Source: Escherichia phage ManiMatter_Bas94
Sequence record: PQ850617.1
DNA: 64,000 nucleotides
Direction: 5' to 3' (one strand)
The notes under the pieces are model-generated. The model was not told where the DNA came from. It worked only from the letters and a program-made list of their open reading frames with translations, and made no database searches. How positions within the stretch are numbered: the first letter of the stretch is position 1; each line of letters opens with the position of its first letter. Position numbers and translations under genes: made by a program. Below are positions 1,076 to 60,676 of the stretch, piece by piece.

Positions 1076-1828
1076 ATGGCAATGCCAGATGTTCAATACC
1101 CCATCAATACCTATGGGTGGCTAAAGAAGGCCGTGGCCCTCTGGGCAGATAGGGACGATGATGAATTTGTTAATCAAATTCCAAACTTTATTAACTTTGC
1201 AGAGAAAGAGATTTATCGTAACTTACGTATCCCTCCTCTGGAAAAAGAAGTGTATTTAGATATTAAAGATGGAGTAGCTTACATTCCTCCTGATTACTTA
1301 GAAGCTCAATGGATGATGAGAGCCAAAGATGGTACAATCTTCCAAGTAACATCTCCTGAAGAGATTAGCTATCGTAGACAGCACGGAACAATTAATCCAT
1401 CTCATTGGAATAACCAACCTGTTAACTTTGCTCGTTTCGGTAGTCGTTTCATTTTCTACCCTAGCATCGAAGCAGATACTCCGTACTACCCTGATGATGG
1501 AAGCCCTTTGATTCCAGCAGAAAACTCAGTGATTCTTAGTTATTATGCAGACCCACCGGAGTTCCATGAAGATACAGACACTAGTGCTATTCTTACTATC
1601 GCACCAGAGCTTCTTCTGTATTTCACCCTACGTCATGCTTGTCTGTTTGTTCAAGATGATAACGGTGTTCAGAAATGGTCAGCATTAGGAAAAGCTATCC
1701 TTGATGAAATGGTAGAACAGAATAAGAAACAAGAGTACTCAGGTTCACCTATCGCAATTCCGAATAACATGACCCGACTTCAGAGCAGCTTGCCTGATAT
1801 TTATGGTATTCGTACTTCTCGTGTATAA
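1076..1828 (+). CDS. Virion structural protein (head-tail adaptor / tail tubular A-like candidate)
   Basis: 250-aa ORF with SD aaggagg. Its position is directly after the capsid gene and before the fibre genes. No diagnostic motif. Confidence 0.35.
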   Translation: MAMPDVQYPINTYGWLKKAVALWADRDDDEFVNQIPNFINFAEKEIYRNLRIPPLEKEVYLDIKDGVAYIPPDYLEAQWMMRAKDGTIFQVTSPEEISYRRQHGTINPSHWNNQPVNFARFGSRFIFYPSIEADTPYYPDDGSPLIPAENSVILSYYADPPEFHEDTDTSAILTIAPELLLYFTLRHACLFVQDDNGVQKWSALGKAILDEMVEQNKKQEYSGSPIAIPNNMTRLQSSLPDIYGIRTSRV

Positions 1829-1837
1829 GGAGATAAT

Positions 1838-4486
1838 ATGATCGTTTATAATAACCAAGCACCTGATGCAGTGAATAACGTTGGGCAGTTTGGTGCTACT
1901 GAAGGCTCTATCGGAGCTTACAAGCAAGCGGCAGAATATGCAGCTGATTCTAAGTATTGGTCACTGTTGGCAGAGGCTAAGTTTGGTACAGTTGATGACT
2001 TGATTGCTCAGGTTGAGATTCTATACAAACAAGGTGTTCTATTAAGAGAAGATATTGAAGACTTAAAACAAGACTTCATTGCACAAGATGCTCGTTTGAT
2101 GAACCTCATTGCTCAAACTAACGCAGCTGTAGCTGATGCAAATAATGCAGTTGCTCTGATTAATCAGAAACTTGTAGAAGTTCAGAATCAACTCGACGTT
2201 CTGTTGGGAATGTCTGTTGACGTAACTACACTTCCTCCGGGAACTCCGGCTACTGGCTCTTTTAATCCGAACACTGGTGTAATCTCTCTGGGTATCCCAG
2301 AAGGTGATCCCGGAAAGGATGGTTCTGTTACTGACCTATCTGCTGCTCCTACCGGTACACCGGAGCTGGGGGACATCGGTTTCTATGTTGACAAAGATGA
2401 TAACATTGTTCACAAAACAACTCTCGAAGATATTGCAAACCTGATCCCATCTGTTCGTTCTGTTTCAGTTAACGATGGCCCTGCGCTTGACGGAGAAGTT
2501 GCTCTAACGCTTAACAAAGAGACGGTAGGTTTAGGGAATGTTCTGAACGTGGCTCAGTACAGCCGCCAAGAGATTAATGATAAGTTTGACAAAACAACTA
2601 AAACCTACCAATCGAAAGCCGAAGCTGATGCGGATGCTCAATACCGACAGGTAGGAGAAAAGGTTTTGGTGTGGGACTCAACGAAGTATGAATTCTATAC
2701 TGTTGCAGCGAATAAAACCCTTACTCCGGTTAAAACAGAAGGTCGTATCCTAACTGTTAACTCCCGTTCTCCTGATTCAACTGGTAACATCGATATCGTA
2801 ATCCCAACAGGAAACCCATCTTTGTATTTAGGGGAGATGGTAATGTTCCCTTATGACCCAGCTAAAGCTGTCTCCTATCCGGGCATTCTTCCTGCGGACG
2901 GTCGTTTGGTGTCAAAAGAATCTGCTTTGGATTTAGGCCCATCCCTTATCAGTGGACAACTCCCTGTTGTTTCTGAAACAGAGTGGCAAGCTGGTGCTAA
3001 GCAATATTTCTCTTGGGGTAAATTAGCCGATGGCATCACTGATGCAGATTCTACTAACTATATCAATATCCGTCTTCCTGATTGGACAGGCGGTGAGGCT
3101 ATTCGATCCCCTGATTCTGTAAAAGATAGTGCATATAAAGGTAATGTTCAAAGTCAGGTCCCTTATGTAGTCACTGTAAATAACCAAGCTCCTGATGAGA
3201 TTACAGGTAACGTCAATATCTCCAGATCTATCTTAGGTGCTGCTGCTGCTGGTGCAAACTCTGATATAACATCTCTCGCAGGGCTTACAACAGCGCTTTC
3301 TGTCACTCAGGGTGGAACAGGTGCAAAGAATTCCAATGATGCTAAGGTAAATTTAGATTTAGACAGAATAGAGCAAGGTTCTGGAGAGACTAAGATCCTA
3401 TCTCCAAATAAAGAAACCTACATGTTTGTTGATAATGACGGGTGGGGTTGTTACCGTACCACGGCTGGGTTGGTCGGTACTGTAGCTTTGTCAGTTGAGA
3501 GAGGGGGCACTGGAGCAACAGATGTTGCTAGTGCAAGAGATAATCTAGGACTTAAATCTCTTTCTACATTAGATACTGTTCCAGTAACAAAAGGTGGGAC
3601 AGGTGCTATCACTGCTGCGGAGGCTAGGTCTAATTTAGGTCTTGGTTCTGTTGCTACTCTTAGTAACGTACCAATCGCTAGTGGTGGTACAGGTGCTAGT
3701 GATGCTGCCGGTGCAAGGTTTAATTTGGGGTTGGGAAATGTTTCTACTCTGGACAACGTACCAGTTGCTAGTGGTGGTACAGGTGCTAGTGATGCTGCCG
3801 GTGCCCGAAGCAACCTCGGAGCGCTGAGTAACACTCCAGCAAACACAGGTGCAGGTAATACTGGTGCGCGAGTCCAACATGCCACCGGAAGAGGTCTGTT
3901 TACTTTAGACATGTTTAACTGCTACTGGTATATGCAGCCAGAGGATACTAACTTCTGGGTTGCCCACGGTGTGTCATATGCAGGGCCTAATGGCGAAGCC
4001 TCAGAGTATGGTCGTATATCTTACGCAATAAAGATTGCAGATGGAACAACAAAATATGTCCATTGTCTTACAAACAAAAACACCATCATTGATACAGGCG
4101 GATTTATCAAAGCGGCATCTCCGGTAGTTAACATTTATGCCAACGGTCGGTATGAAACGAACGATGAGTCTGAGGGGGTTAGTGTCATCCGGCAGGGTAT
4201 TGGTGAATATCTGATTACCGGTTGCCTCGGTCTTAACTCTGATGCAAGATGGGGTGGGGTGGATGGGGGGTTTGAAATCCCAACAGATCGCAACAAGCAA
4301 CCTAGGATTTGGCTGGACTATGAGGTTAAAGAAGATGGTTCTATTTTAGTTAAAACCTATCACAGAACTCACCCAACCTCTCCAGTTTTTGCTAGAAACG
4401 AGATAGAAGGTTTTTCTGATGGGGACCCTATTGATATTCCAAGTGATGCTTTTATCTCAGTTCGTGTAGAGATGCCAGCTGAGTAA
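1838..4486 (+). CDS. Tail fibre protein (coiled-coil N-terminus, GGTGA..A..AR.NLGL repeats, globular C-terminus)
   Basis: Five tandem units of the phage tail-fibre repeat type (V.ASGGTGASDAAGAR.NLGL). The N-terminus is a heptad-rich segment. Confidence 0.75.
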   Translation: MIVYNNQAPDAVNNVGQFGATEGSIGAYKQAAEYAADSKYWSLLAEAKFGTVDDLIAQVEILYKQGVLLREDIEDLKQDFIAQDARLMNLIAQTNAAVADANNAVALINQKLVEVQNQLDVLLGMSVDVTTLPPGTPATGSFNPNTGVISLGIPEGDPGKDGSVTDLSAAPTGTPELGDIGFYVDKDDNIVHKTTLEDIANLIPSVRSVSVNDGPALDGEVALTLNKETVGLGNVLNVAQYSRQEINDKFDKTTKTYQSKAEADADAQYRQVGEKVLVWDSTKYEFYTVAANKTLTPVKTEGRILTVNSRSPDSTGNIDIVIPTGNPSLYLGEMVMFPYDPAKAVSYPGILPADGRLVSKESALDLGPSLISGQLPVVSETEWQAGAKQYFSWGKLADGITDADSTNYINIRLPDWTGGEAIRSPDSVKDSAYKGNVQSQVPYVVTVNNQAPDEITGNVNISRSILGAAAAGANSDITSLAGLTTALSVTQGGTGAKNSNDAKVNLDLDRIEQGSGETKILSPNKETYMFVDNDGWGCYRTTAGLVGTVALSVERGGTGATDVASARDNLGLKSLSTLDTVPVTKGGTGAITAAEARSNLGLGSVATLSNVPIASGGTGASDAAGARFNLGLGNVSTLDNVPVASGGTGASDAAGARSNLGALSNTPANTGAGNTGARVQHATGRGLFTLDMFNCYWYMQPEDTNFWVAHGVSYAGPNGEASEYGRISYAIKIADGTTKYVHCLTNKNTIIDTGGFIKAASPVVNIYANGRYETNDESEGVSVIRQGIGEYLITGCLGLNSDARWGGVDGGFEIPTDRNKQPRIWLDYEVKEDGSILVKTYHRTHPTSPVFARNEIEGFSDGDPIDIPSDAFISVRVEMPAE
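3295..3830 (+). repeat. Tandem roughly 90-bp (30-aa) tail-fibre repeats, the last two nearly identical at DNA level
   Basis: ccaatcgctagtggtggtacaggtgctagtgatgctgccggtgca (3671-3715) compares with ccagttgctagtggtggtacaggtgctagtgatgctgccggtgcc (3761-3805). Confidence 0.85.
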
Positions 4487-17962: not shown

Positions 17963-20900
17963 ATGGCTAACATTAAACCGTGGGAAGAAGCTTCCAAAGC
18001 TCCTGCGTATCTGAATGCCTCTCCGGAGCAACAGGCTCAAATGAGAGAACAATATAAGGCAGCAGGTGGCTTTATTCCTGAGGAACAACCAGTAGCACAA
18101 CCACAACAAGAAGAACGTGGTGTTATAGGTGAGGTTGCTCAAGGTGTGTCAAATGCTCTTCAATCTGGTGGTGCAAACATTGCAGCTAGTGCTGCTAAAG
18201 GTATTGGTGGTTTAGTTGAGATTGGTGAAGATCTAATTGGAGCACAAACTAGTTATGGTAAGCGTATCCAAGAGAACTCTCAGAACCTTCTGAAAGAACG
18301 TATGGATAAGATTGAGGATGGGATTGGTAAAACTGCTGGTCAGTATGCTGGCGTTGTTGGTGATATTGGTTTGACAGTTACTAACCCGTTAGCTGCCGCT
18401 GCTATCATCGCAGGTCGTGAGACAGGTCGTGCATATGCAGACCAAACCCCTAAAGAGGGAGAAGACAAGTCTGTTCTGGATGCAGCCTTAGTTGGTGGTG
18501 CTAACTATGCAGCTCAGAGAATTCTTCCGGGTGCTGTTGGTACAGCTGAATCTACACTTGGTCGTATCGGTCAGAACGTTGTTACTAACGCAGTGGCTGG
18601 TGCTAAAGGCGGTGCTCTTGTAGGTGCTGCTGAAGCTCAGAACAAATATGGTGATGACACAACCTTTGCTAATGTCTTAGAAGGCGCTATTGAAGAAGGT
18701 GCTATTGGTGCTGCATTCGGTGGTGCAGTTGGTGGTGTTCATGGCTTAATTAGCCGTCCAGATTCTGCTGTCTTCAAGAATACTCCAGAATATGCAAAGA
18801 CTGACATTGCTGCTGACGATGAGCTGATTCGTAGTGCTAAGACTGTTGATGAACTGAAAGAAGCCTACTCTAAAGCTGAAACTGCTAACGCCGCTTCCGC
18901 TCTTAATCTTCTGGATGAGAATGGATTCCGTATTACTGATGCTGTTGCTTTAGATTCTCCTGCTGCTCAGCGTATTCTTAATACAGACCAAGCCAGTGCT
19001 GAGAAAGCTGCTTCTGCTCAGAAAGAGCATTCTAACATTCCGGGCCTCAATCCTTTGGCTCCTCCTGCTAAGACTCGTGGTAAAGCATTCGCTGATAACG
19101 AGCACAACCAGAAGAAAGCTGTCGCTATGAAAGATGCAATGGCTGACTACACCAAGGATAACACGAAAGTTCTTACAGATGTTCTAGATAACCTAGACCG
19201 TGAATTAACTGCTTACCGAGCTGCTGATGATTTTACTGGCAATCCACTTGATGTCAAGAATCGCACACAAGCTGACCGTGACTTCGTTGATGCTTATAAG
19301 ACTTTCTATAATGAAGCAAATCGATTCAAAGCTCGTGATGGTGAAGACTTTAACAACTTTGTAGAGAAAGCTACTGAGCTACGGAAGATGGCTGATAACG
19401 TTTCTCCAGAGATGAAGAAAGCTATTAGTGGGTTGAAGAAACTGAAAGGTATGCCTGAAGGTTTTAACCCTATTCAAGATGCTTATACTCTGAACAATGC
19501 AGCTAAGTTCATGAGCAACCAAGACCGTGGTTGGACTTCCCTGACCGATGATGGATTCCGTGAGGCTTCTTCTCCTAGTCTGGTTATGAACACACTCGGT
19601 GCTGCTAAGTATGCTCTGAATCGCTTCTCTTCTCAGCGTGCTCGCTCTCAACGTGTTAAGCAACAAGAAGCTAACAGCGAAGCTATCCGCTCTCTGGCTC
19701 GTGGTGATTTGGAAGTTGCTCGTGCTAAATCTACTGCTGATGAAGCTCGTGCTAAAATGGAAGAAGAACCAGTTGTTGATGACATTAAATTTAAGACGCA
19801 AAATGACGTGGAAACCGAACCGGTTCGGGAGCCTTCTTCTAGTACTGTGACGGAAGAAAATCTTCCTTCTTCCACTCCTCAAGAAGCCCCTCTTACAGCT
19901 CGCGATTTAGTTGCTCAAAGACGTGCAGTTAAACAGGCAGAACAGCGTCGCGCTCAAGAAGAGGCCGCACAGGCTCCAGAACCCACTGTAGAGGAACCAA
20001 CGGTTAAAGCTGAGCCATTACCTGCCCGTGCTCCTAAAGCTCCTAAGGAGTCTATACAGGACGTTAAACCGGCAAGTGGTGTAGAACGTTTAGCTGCCAT
20101 GTCTAGTGCTGCTCGTCAGGCTACTATAGATCGTGCAGAACGTTTTGCTCGTTCTCTGTACTCTCAGACTGCTAAGGCTAAGGCCACTGCTGAAAACTTC
20201 TTGGCTTACAAGGGAAGTTATAGGGAGTTGATGCGTCGGATTCGTCAGGAAGATAATGCTATCAACACTGAGCGTCATGAAGAGATGGCTCGTAATCAGC
20301 TAGCTTCTCAGCAAGGTATTGCTACTGCTAAGAACAACACTGTACGAACTAACTTTGCTGAATGGGTTAAGGAACGTGGTCTGCCAGAAGACATTGCTAC
20401 TAAGGCATTACGTGCTGAAGAGAAGGGTTTAGGTGGGAACGTGACTAACTTAGATAGTCTGAAACGTCGTGCTGAAAGGTTGTATCAGAAGCAGCGTGAG
20501 GACGAGTTTGATAGACTGTATCAACAGGCTCTGGAAGAGAATAAAGCTTTTGATAAGAAGAATGCTCCTAAACTGGCTGACCAGAAGAAAGAACTTCAAT
20601 CTGAGATTGATACTTTGATTGATTCAGAACCTTTACGTCCTGCTCAGAAAGATGCTATGCGTAAACTGATGAATGACTTTGTAGATGAGAAGTTTAAATC
20701 TTCAGAGAAGGCTGGTAGGGAAGAAGCTTTGGAAGTAGGTCAGATGAAGGATATTTGGGATGGGTTTATTAACACCTATAACAGAGAAGTGAATGCCTTC
20801 AACAAAGCTAACAAGAACTCTCAGTACGAAGCTTTTGCTAAACACATACAGGCTCGTGAAGAACGTCTTGCTACTCTGAAAAATAAAGCTCAGGCTCGTG

Positions 20901-28221: not shown

Positions 28222-28715
28222 TTAGTGTGTATGCATCCAGTTTAACCCAATCTGACAATCAGAAGCCAGAGGACACTCCATGTTCAAGTACTCACCAGCC
28301 TTCTTAACACAAAGCTCGGTGTACTCTTTGAGTTTCTGTACATCATTACGGTTCACTGAGAACTGGCCCTCATCGTGCATATCAATTACCTTAGCACAAC
28401 GAACTCCATCTTTCTCAATCCACTTGTTAAGGAACATCATAGCATATTTCATAACAACAGCACCAGCACATTGCAGGAGTGTGTTAAGGGCTTTATGAAC
28501 CATAACCTTACCAGTGGCATCCCGTCTCATTGTAATCTTACGACCATCAACGCCAATCAAATACCCTTGAGCAGCTTTCTCTGTCATACGATCAATGAGG
28601 ATTGCAATACATGGGTTCTCTGCCAAGAAGCGTGCTCGCATCACTGAACCTTCGTCAGCTCCACCACCTACGATTGAACCAAGCTTAGCATCACCAGCAC
28701 CATAGTTAAACGCAT
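28222..28715 (-). CDS. DNA polymerase (family A, T7 gp5-like), exon 2
   Basis: Begins (Y)AFNYGAGDAKLGSIVG, the second half of motif B. Contains motif C VIDMHDEGQF. There is no start codon at the true 5' end. Confidence 0.85.
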
Positions 28716-29421
28716 CTCATATATTCGACAAGAGCCGCAACACTCTCGCCCGTTCTCTTATGAACTGCTACATGTCGCCATGTAGGATAGACTATATCAT
28801 CACCCTCTGTCGAGGGGTTGGGCGCTTCCACCGGCATTAGCTTCCGGTGTACTCCTTTCGGATAGTCGTTGCACCTTCAAGTATTCTATAGCTGTTTCTA
28901 ATCGGCTAACATCATCTTTCAATAGCCCTAAAGCTCTGTTGCAGTTGTGACACAACAGACCGCGTATTACTCCGGATTCATGGCAATGATCAACCACAAG
29001 TTTAATTCTGTGATGTGTTGCCATTGCAAACCCTTCGCCCTTACAGATAGCACACTTCCCATCCTGATCAGCGTACATCTTTTCGTAATCGCTGGCTGTG
29101 ATTCCATAAATTCGTTTGAAGTAGGAATTTCTCCAGCCCCTATCTTTGCATTCATCAGAGCAATAATGTTCAGATGGTGCATTTGGTTGAAAATCTTTTG
29201 AGCAATTACGACAAGGTTTTGGATTGAACCGACCTTGAGGGTATTTACTTGCCTCAGCAGTCTGTTCTTCTTTAGTTTTAGTTACAGTTGTATATTCCAT
29301 AAGCACCTCCATGTTGAGTTGCTATAGAATACTTGCTTGGCTCAGGATTGTCTACTAGAGAGTTTCCCTGAGTTCACCCAATTTAATCGACGAGATTACT
29401 CTCGAAGTATCCATTTACGTC
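28716..29421 (-). mobile_element. Group I intron (706 nt) with homing-endonuclease ORF, inserted in polymerase motif B
   Basis: Joining ...TTTATCT(29422) to AT GCG TTT AAC(28715) restores RDNAKTFI-YAFNYGAGD (T7 has RDNAKTFIYGFLYGAGD). The last exon nucleotide is U, and UAUCU pairs with intron GGAUA to form P1. The last intron nucleotide is G. GNRA hairpins cgaga-gtaa-tctcg and ctacatg-gcga-catgtag are present. Confidence 0.8.
28800..29300 (-). CDS. Intron-encoded His-Me finger endonuclease (endonuclease VII / HNH type)
   Basis: VVDHCHESGVIRGLLCHNCNRALG is the EndoVII-family signature. An N-terminal Cys cluster is present. ATG 29300 is preferred (GGAGGT SD within the listed start). Confidence 0.8.
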   Translation of the reverse strand: MEYTTVTKTKEEQTAEASKYPQGRFNPKPCRNCSKDFQPNAPSEHYCSDECKDRGWRNSYFKRIYGITASDYEKMYADQDGKCAICKGEGFAMATHHRIKLVVDHCHESGVIRGLLCHNCNRALGLLKDDVSRLETAIEYLKVQRLSERSTPEANAGGSAQPLDRG

Positions 29422-30772
29422 AGATAAACGTTTTAGCGTTGTCACGAGTAGGAAGACCAGCAAGTTTCTGGTTGTGGGAGTGGATATCACCTTCAAGAAG
29501 GATATCACGATACATAATAGCAGAAGCTAAACCACGTTCTGCCAGAGCTTTCTTAGCTGGATTATTCTCTTCGATTGCTTCAGCAAGCATATCCCTACAT
29601 TCTTTAATGAGGTAGTGAGCGAGCATACGAAGTTCAAGTCCAGAACCATCATACCCTAAGAATACTTCTTTACCAGCGGGTATGTAATATTTGTAAGCAC
29701 CTACAGGCTTATCTTTCTTCCCCGGCTTACCTTTCTCGTAAATTACGTTAGTACCTTTTCGTATATAACAACCATCAGGAACAACGTTAGTAATAACGAA
29801 AGGACGAGAGTGATCACTGTCTGAATTATAGTCAGACTCAAACAAACTGCGACACTCATGACCAAACAAACCACGGGAGGGAATATTAACCACGATACGA
29901 TGTTTGAATCGAAAAGTTGGCGTAGCGCAGCTGTTAGCTTCTGCCGAAAGTTTACCATCTTCGCGTTCCTTTGCTATGAGTCCACTGATAAGACCTAGCC
30001 TGTGAGCCGCTACAACGCGCCTCTTAAGCAAACTTCCAACACTCCCTAGCTCGCCCCCTAACCCTTCTTCAAGAGTCTCCTCGAGGTTTGTAGGAGCTGT
30101 AGGCCACTTGTTTGAGGTAGCTAGTGCTATCTTAATCTCATCAAACGTGATAGGTCTACGTCGGTTAGGGTTTAAACCTAAACCAAACACATAAGCCTTC
30201 ATATAGTTCTTAGTCTTAAACCTAAAATGCTTCTCTAAGAACCTCCTAATATCTGCGTCAACCATCTCGGCTGTCTGCTTCTGTTTAGCATTACCTCGAA
30301 TCCAAGCTGAATACCACGCTTGGTATGTTCCATACTTTCGTATATCTTTCTTGATTTCAAAAGTATTCCAAGGTTTCTTTGATACGTTAAACTCTGGAGG
30401 AAGAAAACCCTCATCCATAAGGGCTTCTTTAACTCGTGCATCTTTCGATGGGTCAAAGTCCACGTATTCAACACAGGTGAATGCTCCACCAATGTCTTCT
30501 CTCTTAAGGCCAACTCTATCACAATAGGCTTGAGGCCACTTCTGTAAAGCTCCAGACTTCTTAAATGGCTTCATATAAGTAGAGCCATCTAATCTCATCT
30601 TAGGTAAGAGAGGGATCAGTTCTTTGTCGATATTAACAATAATCTCTTTAAGGAGGTGAACATACCACCGAGCATTTCTTCGGTTGAAACTCACTCCGTG
30701 CTTCGCTTGCTTAGAGATTATATCAGCGACAGTCATCTCTGTCAAAAATGGGAGAGCGTCCGGGTTGCTCAC
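29422..30772 (-). CDS. DNA polymerase (family A, T7 gp5-like), exon 1; polymerase domain only
   Basis: Motif A LGYDGSGLELRMLAHY. Ends ...GLPTRDNAKTFI, the first half of motif B, followed by an intron-borne stop. No exonuclease motifs at the N-terminus. Confidence 0.85.
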
Positions 30773-53597: not shown

Positions 53598-53677
53598 TGA
53601 GGATGACAGGATTTGAACCTGCATACTCCAATTACTTCTTTAACGACCGCTTAGAAGGCGGGGAAGATACATCCTCA
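53598..53677 (-). tRNA. tRNA-like element (possible degenerate tRNA-Arg UCU); non-canonical by eye
   Basis: The minus strand has a 7-8 bp acceptor stem GAGGATG/CATCCTC, a perfect T arm GCAGG-TTCAAAT-CCTGT, and a hairpin CCGC-CTTCTAA-GCGG with an anticodon-like loop (UCU). I could not fold a D arm: only 7 nt lie between the acceptor stem and that hairpin, and 23 nt follow it. Confidence 0.4.
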
Positions 53678-60437: not shown

Positions 60438-60541
60438 TCACTTTTTTAATCTTTTTTCATCGTTCCCGCTGTTGGGAAGATATATCAATCAGCTATATTT
60501 GATTGAAGATTAAGCGATCAGGCTTGAACTTATGATTCATA

Positions 60542-60554
60542 TTTTTAAAGAGCG
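60542..60554 (-). promoter_or_regulatory. boxA-like element 2 (CGCTCTTTAAAAA)
   Basis: Lies 13-25 nt downstream of the predicted P2 start. Confidence 0.55.
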
Positions 60555-60573
60555 GTTTTTCTGACTTGTGATC

Positions 60574-60602
60574 AGTATAAACTTACTTTCTCACGTTGTC
60601 AA
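60574..60602 (-). promoter_or_regulatory. Sigma70 promoter P2 (TTGACA-17-TATACT)
   Basis: Read on the minus strand, with an A-tract upstream (gataaaaaagagat). Confidence 0.75.
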
Positions 60603-60676
60603 TCTCTTTTTTATCGTCTTCTTTGATTCTCTTCCCTTATCTCGCGTGAATCTATGCGAAAGGGCAAGACGATAAA

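What the first reader, a model, noticed from the sequence alone, without database searches (positions are those of the whole stretch)
28716..29421. Group I intron with an EndoVII/HNH ORF splitting motif B of the T7-like DNA polymerase
The two polymerase ORFs (29420..30772 and 28222..28644) are fragments. Exon 1 ends ...PTRDNAKTFI plus a stop codon, and the sequence at 28715 continues (Y)AFNYGAGDAKLGSIVG without a start.

Splicing U29422 to A28715 restores RDNAKTFIYAFNYGAGD, close to T7 RDNAKTFIYGFLYGAGD, and a 614-aa in-frame protein.

Several group I hallmarks are visible:
- The 5' splice site follows a U.
- Exon UAUCU can pair with intron GGAUA, 9 nt downstream, to form P1.
- The intron ends in G.
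- GNRA-capped hairpins are present: cgaga-GUAA-ucucg near the 5' end and cuacaug-GCGA-cauguag near the 3' end.

The intron carries a 166-aa His-Me finger nuclease (VVDHCHESGVIRGLLCHNCN). Introns in phage polymerase genes are known in other lineages, but whether this one is described is unknown to me.
Basis: partly seen in the sequence, partly recalled or inferred. Interest (0 to 1): 0.75.

Follow-up and report, generated by a model that had tools for sequence, protein, structure and literature searches.

The report
Self-splicing intron in phage DNA polymerase
A mobile self-splicing RNA intron that carries its own DNA-cutting enzyme interrupts the DNA polymerase gene of this E. coli phage; it is real, but it is an ordinary member of a well-known kind, and the public record of this phage already annotates the gene as joined.

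Summary

**What it is.** Window 28716..29421 (- strand) is a 706-nt group I intron of subgroup IA2. It sits after the first base of the Tyr codon that corresponds to T7 Tyr526 (E. coli Pol I F762), in motif B of a 614-aa, polymerase-domain-only family A DNA polymerase. Its P6a loop carries a 166-aa Endonuclease_7 (His-Me) homing-endonuclease gene.

**Why it is not new.**
- The window is about 99.6% identical to Escherichia phage AidaStucki_Bas93 (PQ850593).
- That GenBank record already annotates the polymerase as a two-piece join with 'endonuclease VII' inside.
- Pseudomonas phage LUZ24 has a 669-nt intron at exactly the same codon position, with a 56%-identical endonuclease. Its splicing has been shown in vivo.
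- The same 706-nt intron, about 96% identical, occurs in at least 8 metagenome contigs.
- 26 IMG/VR loci have related introns at the same site, with guide sequences that covary with the exon.

**Main evidence.**
- Rfam RF00028 scores 43.3 bits (E = 1.7e-9). This is below the gathering score, but the validated LUZ24 intron scores 40.8.
- In my P1-P9.2 model, 88.8% of cells are paired, against 35-42% when the partners are slid.
- The intronless sister phage Bas92 defines the junction.

No RNA data exist for this phage. Interest is low.

The parts
29422..30772 (-). Exon 1 of the family A DNA polymerase (pol domain only). It ends ...RDNAKTFI plus the first base (U29422) of the split Tyr codon.
   Evidence: ORF list and sequence. 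99.3% identical to the uninterrupted Bas92 gene up to this base. PF00476 DNA_pol_A on the intact homologue.
28716..29421 (-). 706-nt group I (IA2) intron, from G29421 to the terminal G28716.
   Evidence: RF00028 43.3 bits, E = 1.7e-9. Exactly the extra DNA relative to intronless Bas92. Same 706-nt element, 96.3-96.6% identical and ungapped, in 8 metagenome contigs.
29408..29426 (-). P1: exon UAUCU (29426..29422) pairs with the internal guide GGAUA (29412..29408), with a U.G wobble at the 5' splice site.
   Evidence: In 28 same-site introns the guide covaries with the exon: UAUCU/GGAUA, UCAUCU/GGAUGA, UUGUCU/GGAUAG, GGUUCU/GGAACC.
29391..29404 (-). P2 hairpin CGAGA-GUAA-UCUCG.
   Evidence: Sequence. 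MQM1 has GGGGA-GUAA-UCCCC at the same place.
29321..29381 (-). 5' half of the ribozyme core: P3 5' strand, P4, P5, P4', P6 and the P6a 5' strand.
   Evidence: Structure mapped. Pair counts: P3 96%, P4 99%, P5 97% of cells paired, with compensatory changes.
29304..29310 (-). Shine-Dalgarno GGAGGUG of the endonuclease gene, in the P6a loop.
   Evidence: Sequence. The same cassette, AGCAACTCAA.A.GGAGGTGCTTATG, is present in Klebsiella phage RCIP0053.
28800..29300 (-). 166-aa homing-endonuclease gene of the Endonuclease_7 / His-Me finger ('DHHRN') type. Its last ~50 codons overlap P6a', P6', P7, P7.1, P7.2, P3' and P8.
   Evidence: PF02945 83.4 bits. Aligns to T4 endonuclease VII and R.Hpy99I. About 60% identical to intron ORFs of Yersinia phage Berlin and relatives and 56% to LUZ24 gp35. 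Annotated 'endonuclease VII' Bas93_0043.
28716..28892 (-). 3' half of the ribozyme:
- P6a' 28878..28892
- P7 28863..28867 pairing with 28790..28794 (pseudoknot with P3)
- P7.1-GUA-P7.2
- P3'
- P8
- P9 28768..28785
- P9.1 28752..28765
- P9.2 28727..28750
- terminal G28716
   Evidence: P7 is invariant. P7.1, P7.2 and P9 are 100% paired with compensatory changes.
28222..28715 (-). Exon 2: the last two bases of the Tyr codon, then AFNYGAGD..., motif C (MHDE) and the stop codon.
   Evidence: 99.8% identical to Bas92. Aligns to the T7 DNA polymerase C-terminus.

Best explanation
This is a mobile, self-splicing group I intron of subgroup IA2 in the polymerase-domain gene of a Kuravirus-like coliphage. 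The window is essentially Escherichia phage AidaStucki_Bas93.

**Splicing (inferred).**
- The gene is transcribed as one pre-mRNA.
- The intron folds into the P1-P9.2 core.
- An exogenous guanosine attacks after U29422, which is held in P1 by the guide GGAUA.
- The freed exon-1 3'-OH then attacks after the terminal G28716.
- This ligates ...UUUAUCU to AUGCGUUU... and restores the Tyr codon equivalent to T7 Tyr526 (E. coli F762) in the O-helix.
- The result is a 614-aa polymerase.
- Unspliced RNA gives only a 450-aa fragment, because UGA spans the 5' splice site.

**Mobility (inferred).**
- The P6a loop carries an independently translated endonuclease VII-type His-Me nuclease.
- It most likely cuts or nicks intronless polymerase alleles near this site during mixed infection.
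- Repair from the intron-containing genome then copies the intron in (homing).

**Shown here.**
- the exact boundaries;
- the conserved and covarying RNA structure;
- the protein family and its intact catalytic and zinc residues;
- the existence of an intronless sister allele;
- near-identical copies in different exon backgrounds.

**Inferred, not shown.** Splicing and cleavage in this particular phage.
For: 1. **Boundaries.** Intronless Bas92 is 99.3% and 99.8% identical in the flanks and reads TTTATCTACGCG across the junction. The insert is exactly 706 nt and the spliced ORF is 614 aa.
2. **Rfam RF00028.**
   - The window scores 43.3 bits, E = 1.7e-9, as a full-length model match with a 434-nt insertion in P6.
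   - The in-vivo-validated LUZ24 intron scores 40.8, so a score below the gathering threshold is normal for ORF-containing members.
   - The ORF-less same-site intron of MQM1 scores 75.1, and the LAMP intron 12 nt downstream scores 100.8.
3. **Structure.** I tested my P1-P9.2 model, with P7 written as a pseudoknot, on 11 related introns.
   - 88.8% of cells are paired, against 35-42% for slid partners.
   - 60 of 82 pairs have changes on both sides.
   - 0 of 500 shuffles reach the observed values.
   - P7.1-GUA-P7.2 is present, which is the IA2 signature.
4. **P1 covariation.** 28 same-site introns show covariation between the guide and the exon.
5. **LUZ24.**
   - I inferred the LUZ24 boundaries by the same rules.
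   - They equal the published spliced 669-bp fragment 19143-19811 (PMC10914365).
   - They lie at the same codon position...TTCATCT|...G|ATGCG.
6. **T7 alignment.** The split codon falls on T7 Tyr526 in motif B.
7. **Endonuclease gene.**
   - It matches PF02945 at E = 1.1e-23.
   - D104, H105, H107, R113, N121 and C83/C86/C117/C120 align with T4 endonuclease VII D40, H41, H43, R54, N62 and its four Cys (my count).
   - Homologues in Berlin, YpP-G and LUZ24 are described as intron-encoded homing endonucleases (PMC6083498).
8. **Spread.**
   - The same 706-nt intron is about 96% identical in 8 metagenome contigs, with differing exon-2 sequences and with or without a second intron.
   - Only Bas93, of 111 matching phage records, has it.
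9. **Annotation.** GenBank already joins the CDS.
Against: - There are no RNA or cleavage data for this phage.
- The RF00028 score is below the curated gathering score (43.3 against 50).
- P10 is weak. I find only A-U and U-A next to the guide, plus a possible GCGU/ACGU pairing with a 2-nt bulge. This is my own reading and is not supported by covariation.
- The endonuclease ORF has lost the TAA stop found in its relatives (CAA here). It reads 23 extra codons through the ribozyme core, which could be a first sign of decay.
- Apart from the one synonymous change next to the site, the nearest exon differences between the window and Bas92 are 179 nt upstream and 439 nt downstream. There is no visible co-conversion tract.
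Confidence: 0.93

Rival explanations
1. The ribozyme splices, but the endonuclease is inactive or decaying. The intron would then be inherited vertically as a stranded element rather than actively homing.
For: - The stop codon TAA found in Berlin, RCIP0053 and LUZ24 (GTG TAA) is CAA here, which adds a 23-aa tail encoded by the ribozyme core.
- Only one of about 75 cultured Kuravirus-type records carries the intron.
- There is no co-conversion tract relative to Bas92.
- ORF-less derivatives exist at the same site (MQM1) and at the neighbouring site (LAMP).
Against: - All catalytic and zinc-binding residues are intact.
- The ORF is full length and has a strong Shine-Dalgarno sequence.
- Copies about 96% identical sit in contigs whose exons differ and which do or do not carry the motif C intron. 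This fits horizontal spread.
Confidence: 0.25
2. There is no splicing. The two ORFs are translated separately and assemble into a split polymerase, and the intervening DNA is just a free-standing endonuclease gene.
For: Gene callers report the fragments as separate ORFs. This phage group already encodes the exonuclease and polymerase domains as separate proteins (PMC3517423).
Against: - The exon-2 frame is closed by TGA one codon before the junction.
- Its first possible start is the GTG at 28644, so YAFNYGAGDAKLGSIVGGGADEGS, half of the O-helix, could not be made.
- The intervening DNA has a conserved, covarying group I core.
- The same-site LUZ24 element is spliced in vivo (PMC10914365).
Confidence: 0.02
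3. The intron is a dead insertion and the polymerase gene is a pseudogene. Replication would depend on another polymerase.
For: The RF00028 score is below the gathering threshold.
Against: - Bas93 is a plaque-forming isolate (PMC11990801).
- Every core helix is intact in this sequence.
- The two ribozyme differences from the GenBank copy are structure-neutral: A-U against G.U in P7.2, and one base in the P8 loop.
- Both exons remain open and are more than 99% identical to the intact Bas92 gene.
Confidence: 0.02

Closest known systems
[quoted passage not shown] 2008, Virology 377:233; splicing re-confirmed in PMC10914365)
   Same: - The insertion position is identical: after the first base of the Tyr codon...TTYATCT|intron|ATGCG.
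- The host gene is the same type, a polymerase-domain-only family A polymerase about 55% identical over the C-terminal 174 aa.
- The endonuclease VII-type ORF is 56% identical and sits in the same loop.
- The 5' ribozyme half is similar: 65 of 76 aligned nt match.
- The RF00028 scores are similar: 40.8 against 43.3.
   Different: - The host phage lineage differs: Bruynoghevirus on Pseudomonas against Kuravirus-like on E. coli.
- The intron is 669 nt against 706 nt.
- The guide is GGAUGA against GGAUA, matching exon UUC against UUU.
- The 3' ribozyme half is divergent.
- The LUZ24 ORF stops at TAA before J6/7. Here it reads through.
Introns of T7-like Yersinia phages Berlin, Yepe2, Yep-phi and YpP-G, Salmonella Vi06 and Klebsiella RCIP0053 (intron-encoded EndoVII-motif 'DHHRN' endonucleases, PMC6083498)
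   Same: - They lie in family A polymerase motif B.
- The endonuclease family is the same, about 60% aa identity.
- They are IA2 ribozymes with the ORF in P6a.
- The RBS-plus-ORF cassette is shared with RCIP0053.
   Different: - They are inserted 5 nt upstream, ACGUU|U in the codon equal to T7 F524.
- Berlin and RCIP0053 have a different 5' ribozyme half without P2.
- Vi06 has a similar ribozyme but an unrelated ORF.
PhiI / W31 intron of T7-like coliphages (Bonocora & Shub 2004, J Bacteriol 186:8153; I-TslI)
   Same: It is a self-splicing IA2 intron in a T7-type DNA polymerase gene of an enterobacterial podophage, with an HNH-superfamily ORF in P6a. This rests on my knowledge of the abstract and on PMC3428280.
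   Different: It is reported at E. coli Pol I position 881, in motif C (PMC3428280), not in motif B. It has a different HNH subfamily. I could not read the paper or the sequences.
SPO1, SP82, Bastille and Pf-WMP3 polymerase introns (I-HmuI, I-HmuII, I-BasI, I-PfoP3I)
   Same: They are IA2 introns with nicking HNH endonucleases in conserved motifs of phage family A polymerases (PMC3428280).
   Different: They are inserted at position 674 (E. coli numbering), upstream of motif A. Their endonucleases are of the I-HmuI type, not the Endonuclease_7 type.
Escherichia phage LAMP (Kuravirus) polymerase intron
   Same: The host gene is the same (99% identical exons). It is an IA2 ribozyme, and the record is also annotated as a join.
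   Different: - It is ORF-less and 304 nt long.
- It is inserted 12 nt downstream, in the codon equal to T7 Y530.
- Its guide is GGUU, for exon AACU.
- Its ribozyme sequence is largely different.

Membership tests
Group I intron (Rfam RF00028) | Match to the covariance model at or above the curated gathering score | tested here: inconclusive
   43.3 bits against a gathering score of 50, E = 1.7e-9, a full-length match with a 434-nt insertion. The experimentally spliced LUZ24 intron scores 40.8. ORF-less relatives score 75.1 and 100.8.
Group I intron (Rfam RF00028) | U at the last exon position, paired with G of an internal guide sequence (P1) | tested here: met
   U29422.G29412 within UAUCU/GGAUA. 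Guide and exon covary across 28 same-site introns.
Group I intron (Rfam RF00028) | Terminal guanosine at the 3' splice site | tested here: met
   G28716. This is the only placement consistent with the intronless allele and the conserved Tyr. All 28 same-site introns end in G.
Group I intron (Rfam RF00028) | Conserved core P3-P9 with the P3/P7 pseudoknot, supported by covariation | tested here: met
   88.8% of cells paired against 35-42% for slid partners. 60 of 82 pairs have changes on both sides. 0 of 500 shuffles reach the observed values. P7 is invariant.
Group I intron (Rfam RF00028) | Guanosine-dependent self-splicing | not testable with these tools
   This needs in vitro transcription with GTP, or cDNA from infected cells.
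Subgroup IA2 | P7.1 and P7.2 between P7 and P3', joined by G-U-A (criterion as quoted in PMC3428280) | tested here: met
   UCC-GAAA-GGA, then GUA, then CACCGG...CCGGUG at 28829..28862. Both helices are 100% paired with compensatory changes.
Endonuclease VII-type ('DHHRN') homing endonucleases | Endonuclease_7 domain above the Pfam cut-off | tested here: met
   PF02945, 83.4 bits against a cut-off of 23.6.
Endonuclease VII-type ('DHHRN') homing endonucleases | Catalytic D-H-H-R-N residues and four zinc-binding Cys | tested here: met
   The alignment to T4 endonuclease VII (1e7d/1en7) conserves D104, H105, H107, R113 and N121, and C83, C86, C117 and C120. The residue numbering is my own count.
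Endonuclease VII-type ('DHHRN') homing endonucleases | Site-specific cleavage of the intronless allele, and homing | not testable with these tools
   The evidence is only indirect: near-identical intron copies in different exon backgrounds.
LUZ24-type polymerase intron (same-site lineage) | The same insertion position in the homologous gene, with a homologous ORF | tested here: met
   Both lie after base 1 of the Tyr codon of KTFI-Y-AF. The ORFs are 56% identical.
Family A DNA polymerase (host gene) | DNA_pol_A domain, with motif B restored by splicing | tested here: met
   PF00476, 82.2 bits. The alignment to T7 DNA polymerase puts RDNAKTFIYAFNYGAGD on R518-D534.

The most novel reading that the evidence does not exclude
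The intron is one of at least four related IA2 intron insertion points packed into 17 nt of polymerase motif B.

- The four points lie in the codons equal to T7 F524, Y526, F528 and Y530.
- One endonuclease family serves introns at two of these points, 5 nt apart.
- The closest relatives of the 5' ribozyme, the ORF and the 3' ribozyme are in different contigs.

This would make the Kuravirus, T7-like and LUZ24-like polymerases a natural system for studying endonuclease genes swapping between neighbouring introns. It would equally serve for studying introns shifting site while keeping one cleavage target. The Bas93/Bas92/LAMP trio would be a ready-made experimental set.
Probability: 0.35. Interest if true: 0.4.

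Novelty: new member of a known kind. Interest (0 to 1): 0.2.

Why it matters
There is little conceptual novelty. Group I introns with HNH or EndoVII endonucleases in conserved motifs of phage polymerase genes have been known since SPO1 (1990) and LUZ24 (2008).

The practical value is fourfold:
- **Annotation.** Gene callers split this polymerase into fragments, as seen in all the metagenome contigs. Many related records, such as PE006, RCIP0053 and PSD2002, still carry split or 'hypothetical' CDSs.
- **A test pair.** Bas93 (intron-plus) and Bas92 (intron-minus) come from the same river and have more than 99% identical flanks. They form a clean pair for measuring homing in a BASEL-collection phage on E. 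coli K-12.
- **The split residue.** The split codon encodes the O-helix tyrosine that governs dideoxynucleotide discrimination in T7 polymerase. This illustrates again that these elements target the most constrained DNA.
- **Site clustering.** Several insertion sites cluster within motif B, which is useful material for studies of intron and endonuclease co-evolution.

Tried and rejected
- **Intein.** Rejected: stop codons occur in all frames across the insert, and UGA sits at the 5' junction.
- **Alternative splice registers.**
  - The Rfam alignment places the model's splice-site U four nt upstream, at GUU|UAU.
  - I rejected this because the Bas92 comparison allows only one register that keeps the Tyr, a U at -1 and a terminal G, and P1 covariation supports it.
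  - Shifts of -1 and +1 give FIDA and FICA.
- **Mosaic origin.**
  - I first thought the intron was a clear chimera of an MQM1-type ribozyme and a Berlin-type endonuclease gene.
  - IMG/VR contigs such as L015, L071 and L026 combine a similar 5' ribozyme, the same endonuclease family and the same site.
  - Acquisition as a single unit is therefore equally possible, and I demoted the idea to the 'novel case'.
- **Papers not held.** Bonocora & Shub 2004 and 2009 are not in the library, and the phiI sequence AY769989 is not in the collections. The phiI/W31 site rests on the statement in PMC3428280.
- **GenBank protein look-up.** The exact spliced Bas93 polymerase protein was not in the protein collection. 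The GenBank join coordinates are therefore inferred from the lengths: 2551 - 706 = 1845 nt.
- **Other introns in the window.** A whole-window Rfam scan at a permissive threshold found none.
- **Co-conversion tract.** I found none relative to Bas92, only the TAC-to-TAT change next to the site.
Full report
**1. The observation.**
- On the - strand, the ORF 29420..30772 ends ...LPTRDNAKTFI. Its stop codon UGA is made of U29422 plus G29421 and A29420.
- From A28715 the sequence reads (Y)AFNYGAGDAKLGSIVG.... That frame is closed by a TGA one codon upstream (28719..28717), and its first possible start is the GTG at 28644.
- Joining U29422 to A28715 gives a 614-aa ORF with ...RDNAKTFIYAFNYGAGDAKLG....
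- The inner ORF (28800..29300, 166 aa) has a GGAGGUG Shine-Dalgarno sequence three nt before its ATG. It matches Pfam Endonuclease_7 (PF02945) at 83.4 bits, E = 1.1e-23.

**2. Identity of the window, and the intronless allele.**
- The 2.8-kb region is 99.6% identical to Escherichia phage AidaStucki_Bas93 (PQ850593). This is a Kuravirus-like (Gordonclarkvirinae) podophage of the BASEL collection.
- That record already annotates the polymerase as a CDS joined from two pieces (Bas93_0042), with 'endonuclease VII' (Bas93_0043) inside. The lengths fit a 706-nt intron: 2551 - 706 = 1845 nt.
- The BASEL paper never uses the word intron. It mentions only 'homing endonuclease insertions' in a figure legend (PMC11990801).
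- The sister phage JacquesWildberger_Bas92, from the same river, has an uninterrupted 1845-nt gene. Its flanks are 99.3% and 99.8% identical and it reads TTTATCTACGCGTTTAAC across the junction.
- The extra DNA is therefore exactly 706 nt. The only register that keeps the conserved Tyr, a U before the 5' splice site and a G at the intron end is U29422|G29421...G28716|A28715.
- The only exon difference near the site is TAC (Bas92) against T|AT (window), which is synonymous. The next differences are 179 nt upstream and 439 nt downstream.
- The window differs from the GenBank copy at 12 of 2801 positions. The two in the ribozyme are neutral: A-U against G.U in P7.2, and one base in the P8 loop.

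**3. It is a group I intron.**
- Rfam RF00028 matches 28768..29436 (-) over the whole model at 43.3 bits, E = 1.7e-9, with a 434-nt insertion in P6. It is the only group I hit in the window.
- The score is below the gathering score of 50. The LUZ24 intron, whose splicing is shown in vivo, scores 40.8.
- ORF-less relatives score 75.1 (Aeromonas phage MQM1, same site) and 100.8 (Escherichia phage LAMP).
- I wrote out a full model: P1, P2, P3, P4, P5, P6, P6a, P7 (pseudoknotted with P3), P7.1, P7.2, P8, P9, P9.1 and P9.2.
- I counted its pairs on an alignment of 11 related introns with the ORFs trimmed.
  - 88.8% of cells form standard pairs, against 35-42% when partners are slid by 1-3 columns.
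  - 60 of 82 pairs show changes on both sides.
  - None of 500 shuffles reaches the observed values.
- P7.1 and P7.2 joined by G-U-A assign the intron to subgroup IA2, using the criterion quoted in PMC3428280.
- The 3' strand of P6a lies inside the endonuclease coding sequence (...AIEYLKV). It covaries with the 5' strand between Bas93, RCIP0053 and Berlin.

**4. The site.**
- Alignment to T7 DNA polymerase (PDB 1skr and others) puts LPTRDNAKTFIYAFNYGAGD on T7 R518...Y526...Y530.
- The intron follows the first base of the codon for the Tyr526 equivalent (E. coli Pol I F762). This is the O-helix residue known to govern dideoxynucleotide discrimination (established knowledge).
- The host protein has only the polymerase domain (PF00476). 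In this phage group and in the LUZ24 group the proofreading exonuclease is a separate gene (PMC3517423).

**5. Relatives, and what is already known.**
- Pseudomonas phage LUZ24 has an intron at exactly the same position: ...GACCTTCATCT|GUGAGAUAUGGAUGA...UUUUG|ATGCGTTCATCTACGG.
- I inferred its boundaries blind, by the same rules. They come out as 19143-19811 (669 nt), identical to the fragment seen removed in full-length cDNA (PMC10914365, citing Ceyssens et al. 2008).
- LUZ24 gp35, 'endonuclease VII', is 56% identical to the window's ORF.
- The endonuclease has about 60%-identical homologues inside polymerase introns of several other phages: Yersinia phages Berlin, Yepe2, Yep-phi and YpP-G, Pectobacterium Jarilo, and Klebsiella RCIP0053, IME184 and Kpp-61.
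- PMC6083498 already lists the Berlin, YpP-G and LUZ24 proteins as intron-encoded members of the EndoVII-motif 'DHHRN' homing-endonuclease family. The Berlin-type introns lie 5 nt upstream, at ACGUU|U.
- In IMG/VR the endonuclease has 290 relatives, the best at 67% aa identity.
  - Of the best 80 loci, 26 have a 663-732-nt intron at exactly the window's position.
  - Each has a U at -1 and a terminal G.
  - Each guide tracks its exon: UAUCU/GGAUA, UCAUCU/GGAUGA, UUGUCU/GGAUAG, GGUUCU/GGAACC.
- The exact Bas93 endonuclease belongs to a 90%-identity cluster of 31 sequences from Logan, ENA and NCBI assemblies.
- Eight contigs fetched for one member all contain the same 706-nt intron at the same junction, 96.3-96.6% identical and ungapped. 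Their exon-2 sequences differ, and they do or do not carry a second intron in motif C.
- Among 111 matching cultured-phage records, only Bas93 carries it.

**6. Mechanism.**
- Shown: boundaries, fold, protein family with intact catalytic (D104, H105, H107, R113, N121) and zinc (C83, C86, C117, C120) residues, an intronless sister allele, and a patchy distribution with near-identical copies.
- Inferred: guanosine-initiated self-splicing that restores the Tyr codon and a functional 614-aa polymerase, and homing driven by the endonuclease during mixed infection.
- The UGA across the 5' splice site should stop ribosomes at the intron border on unspliced RNA.
- The endonuclease ORF has CAA where its relatives have the TAA stop (GUG UAA CGACUA). 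It therefore runs 23 codons further through P7-P8, to the UGA at 28802..28800. This may be harmless, or it may be early decay.
- P10 is weak by my reading.

**7. Rivals.**
- A split, unspliced polymerase is very unlikely. Exon 2 cannot be translated from the junction, the O-helix would be cut, and the insert has a covarying ribozyme core.
- A dead intron is unlikely in a plaque-forming phage with an intact core.
- The live alternative is that the ribozyme works but the endonuclease no longer does.

**8. Verdict.**
- The finding is real and correctly interpreted, but ordinary.
- It is a further member of the LUZ24-type, EndoVII-carrying IA2 intron lineage of phage family A polymerases. The public record of this very phage already annotates the gene as a joined CDS.
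- The mildly interesting extras are three. Insertion sites cluster in motif B (the codons equal to T7 F524, Y526, F528 and Y530, within 17 nt). Three-exon alleles exist in metagenomes. Bas93 and Bas92 form a natural pair for homing experiments.

Noticed in passing
L003 (Escherichia phage LAMP MG673519) 1992..2295: An ORF-less 304-nt IA2 intron lies 12 nt downstream of the window's site (TTTAACT|...G|ATGGGG, in the codon equal to T7 Y530). RF00028 scores it at 100.8 bits. Synonymous changes cluster around it (ATA TAT GCC ... GGG GCA). The record annotates it as a joined CDS.
   Followed up: partly
L004 (phage PE006) about 2343..2916; equivalent to window ~28375 (motif C, ..VIDMHDEG..): Most Kuravirus records (PE006, NJ01, 172-1, SGF2, Bas90, Bas91 and others) carry a different ~600-nt insert in motif C with a 131-aa HNH_3 ORF. 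RF00028 gives only 28.7 bits for its 3' part. It is often annotated as separate 'DNA polymerase' CDSs. The window lacks it.
   Followed up: partly
L098, L099, L102, L104 (ENA/Logan metagenome contigs): These contigs carry both the motif B intron (Endonuclease_7) and the motif C insert (HNH_3) in one polymerase gene, giving a three-exon gene. L097, L100, L101 and L103 have only the motif B intron.
   Followed up: partly
L010 (Klebsiella phage RCIP0099) 229..458; L005 Berlin; L008 Vi06; L007 RCIP0053: There are more motif B insertion points. RCIP0099's intron sits in the codon equal to T7 F528. Those of Berlin, Vi06 and RCIP0053 sit in the codon equal to T7 F524. Together with the Y526 and Y530 sites, that makes four sites within 17 nt. 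Several of these genes are annotated as unrelated 'hypothetical protein' fragments.
   Followed up: partly
window 28714 (third base of the split Tyr codon): Every intron-containing allele examined has T|AT: the window, MQM1, LUZ24, 26 IMG/VR loci and 8 metagenome contigs. The intronless Kuravirus alleles Bas92 and PE006 have TAC. This could reflect a splice-site or P10 requirement, protection of the target site, or co-conversion.
   Followed up: no
window 28800..28871: The endonuclease ORF reads through the position where relatives have a TAA stop (CAA here). It takes 23 codons (QRLSERSTPEANAGGSAQPLDRG) from the ribozyme core, P7 to P8.
   Followed up: partly
window 53598..53676 (-): A tRNA-like element scores 33.4 bits on Rfam tRNA, just above the gathering score of 29. 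It has an almost absent D-arm and a 20-nt extra arm. ARAGORN finds no tRNA in the window. The corresponding stretch of PQ850593 (about 60537..60615) has no annotated feature.
   Followed up: partly
window 28222..30772: The polymerase has no 3'-5' exonuclease domain. It is a 614-aa polymerase domain only, as in the LUZ24 group ('DNA polymerase part II'), whose C-terminal 174 aa are about 55% identical.
   Followed up: partly
L012 (T4-like Escherichia phage PSD2002) 230..459: An IA2 intron of the same sequence lineage splits the family B polymerase at ...SLYGAL|GNVWF, that enzyme's own motif B. It is annotated as two 'DNA polymerase' CDSs.
   Followed up: no
L005 (Yersinia phage Berlin) endonuclease VII ORF, 1780..2214: The Berlin homologue reads VVDHCRTKG where the window and T4 endonuclease VII have D-H-x-H. 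One of the catalytic-motif histidines is replaced by Arg.
   Followed up: no
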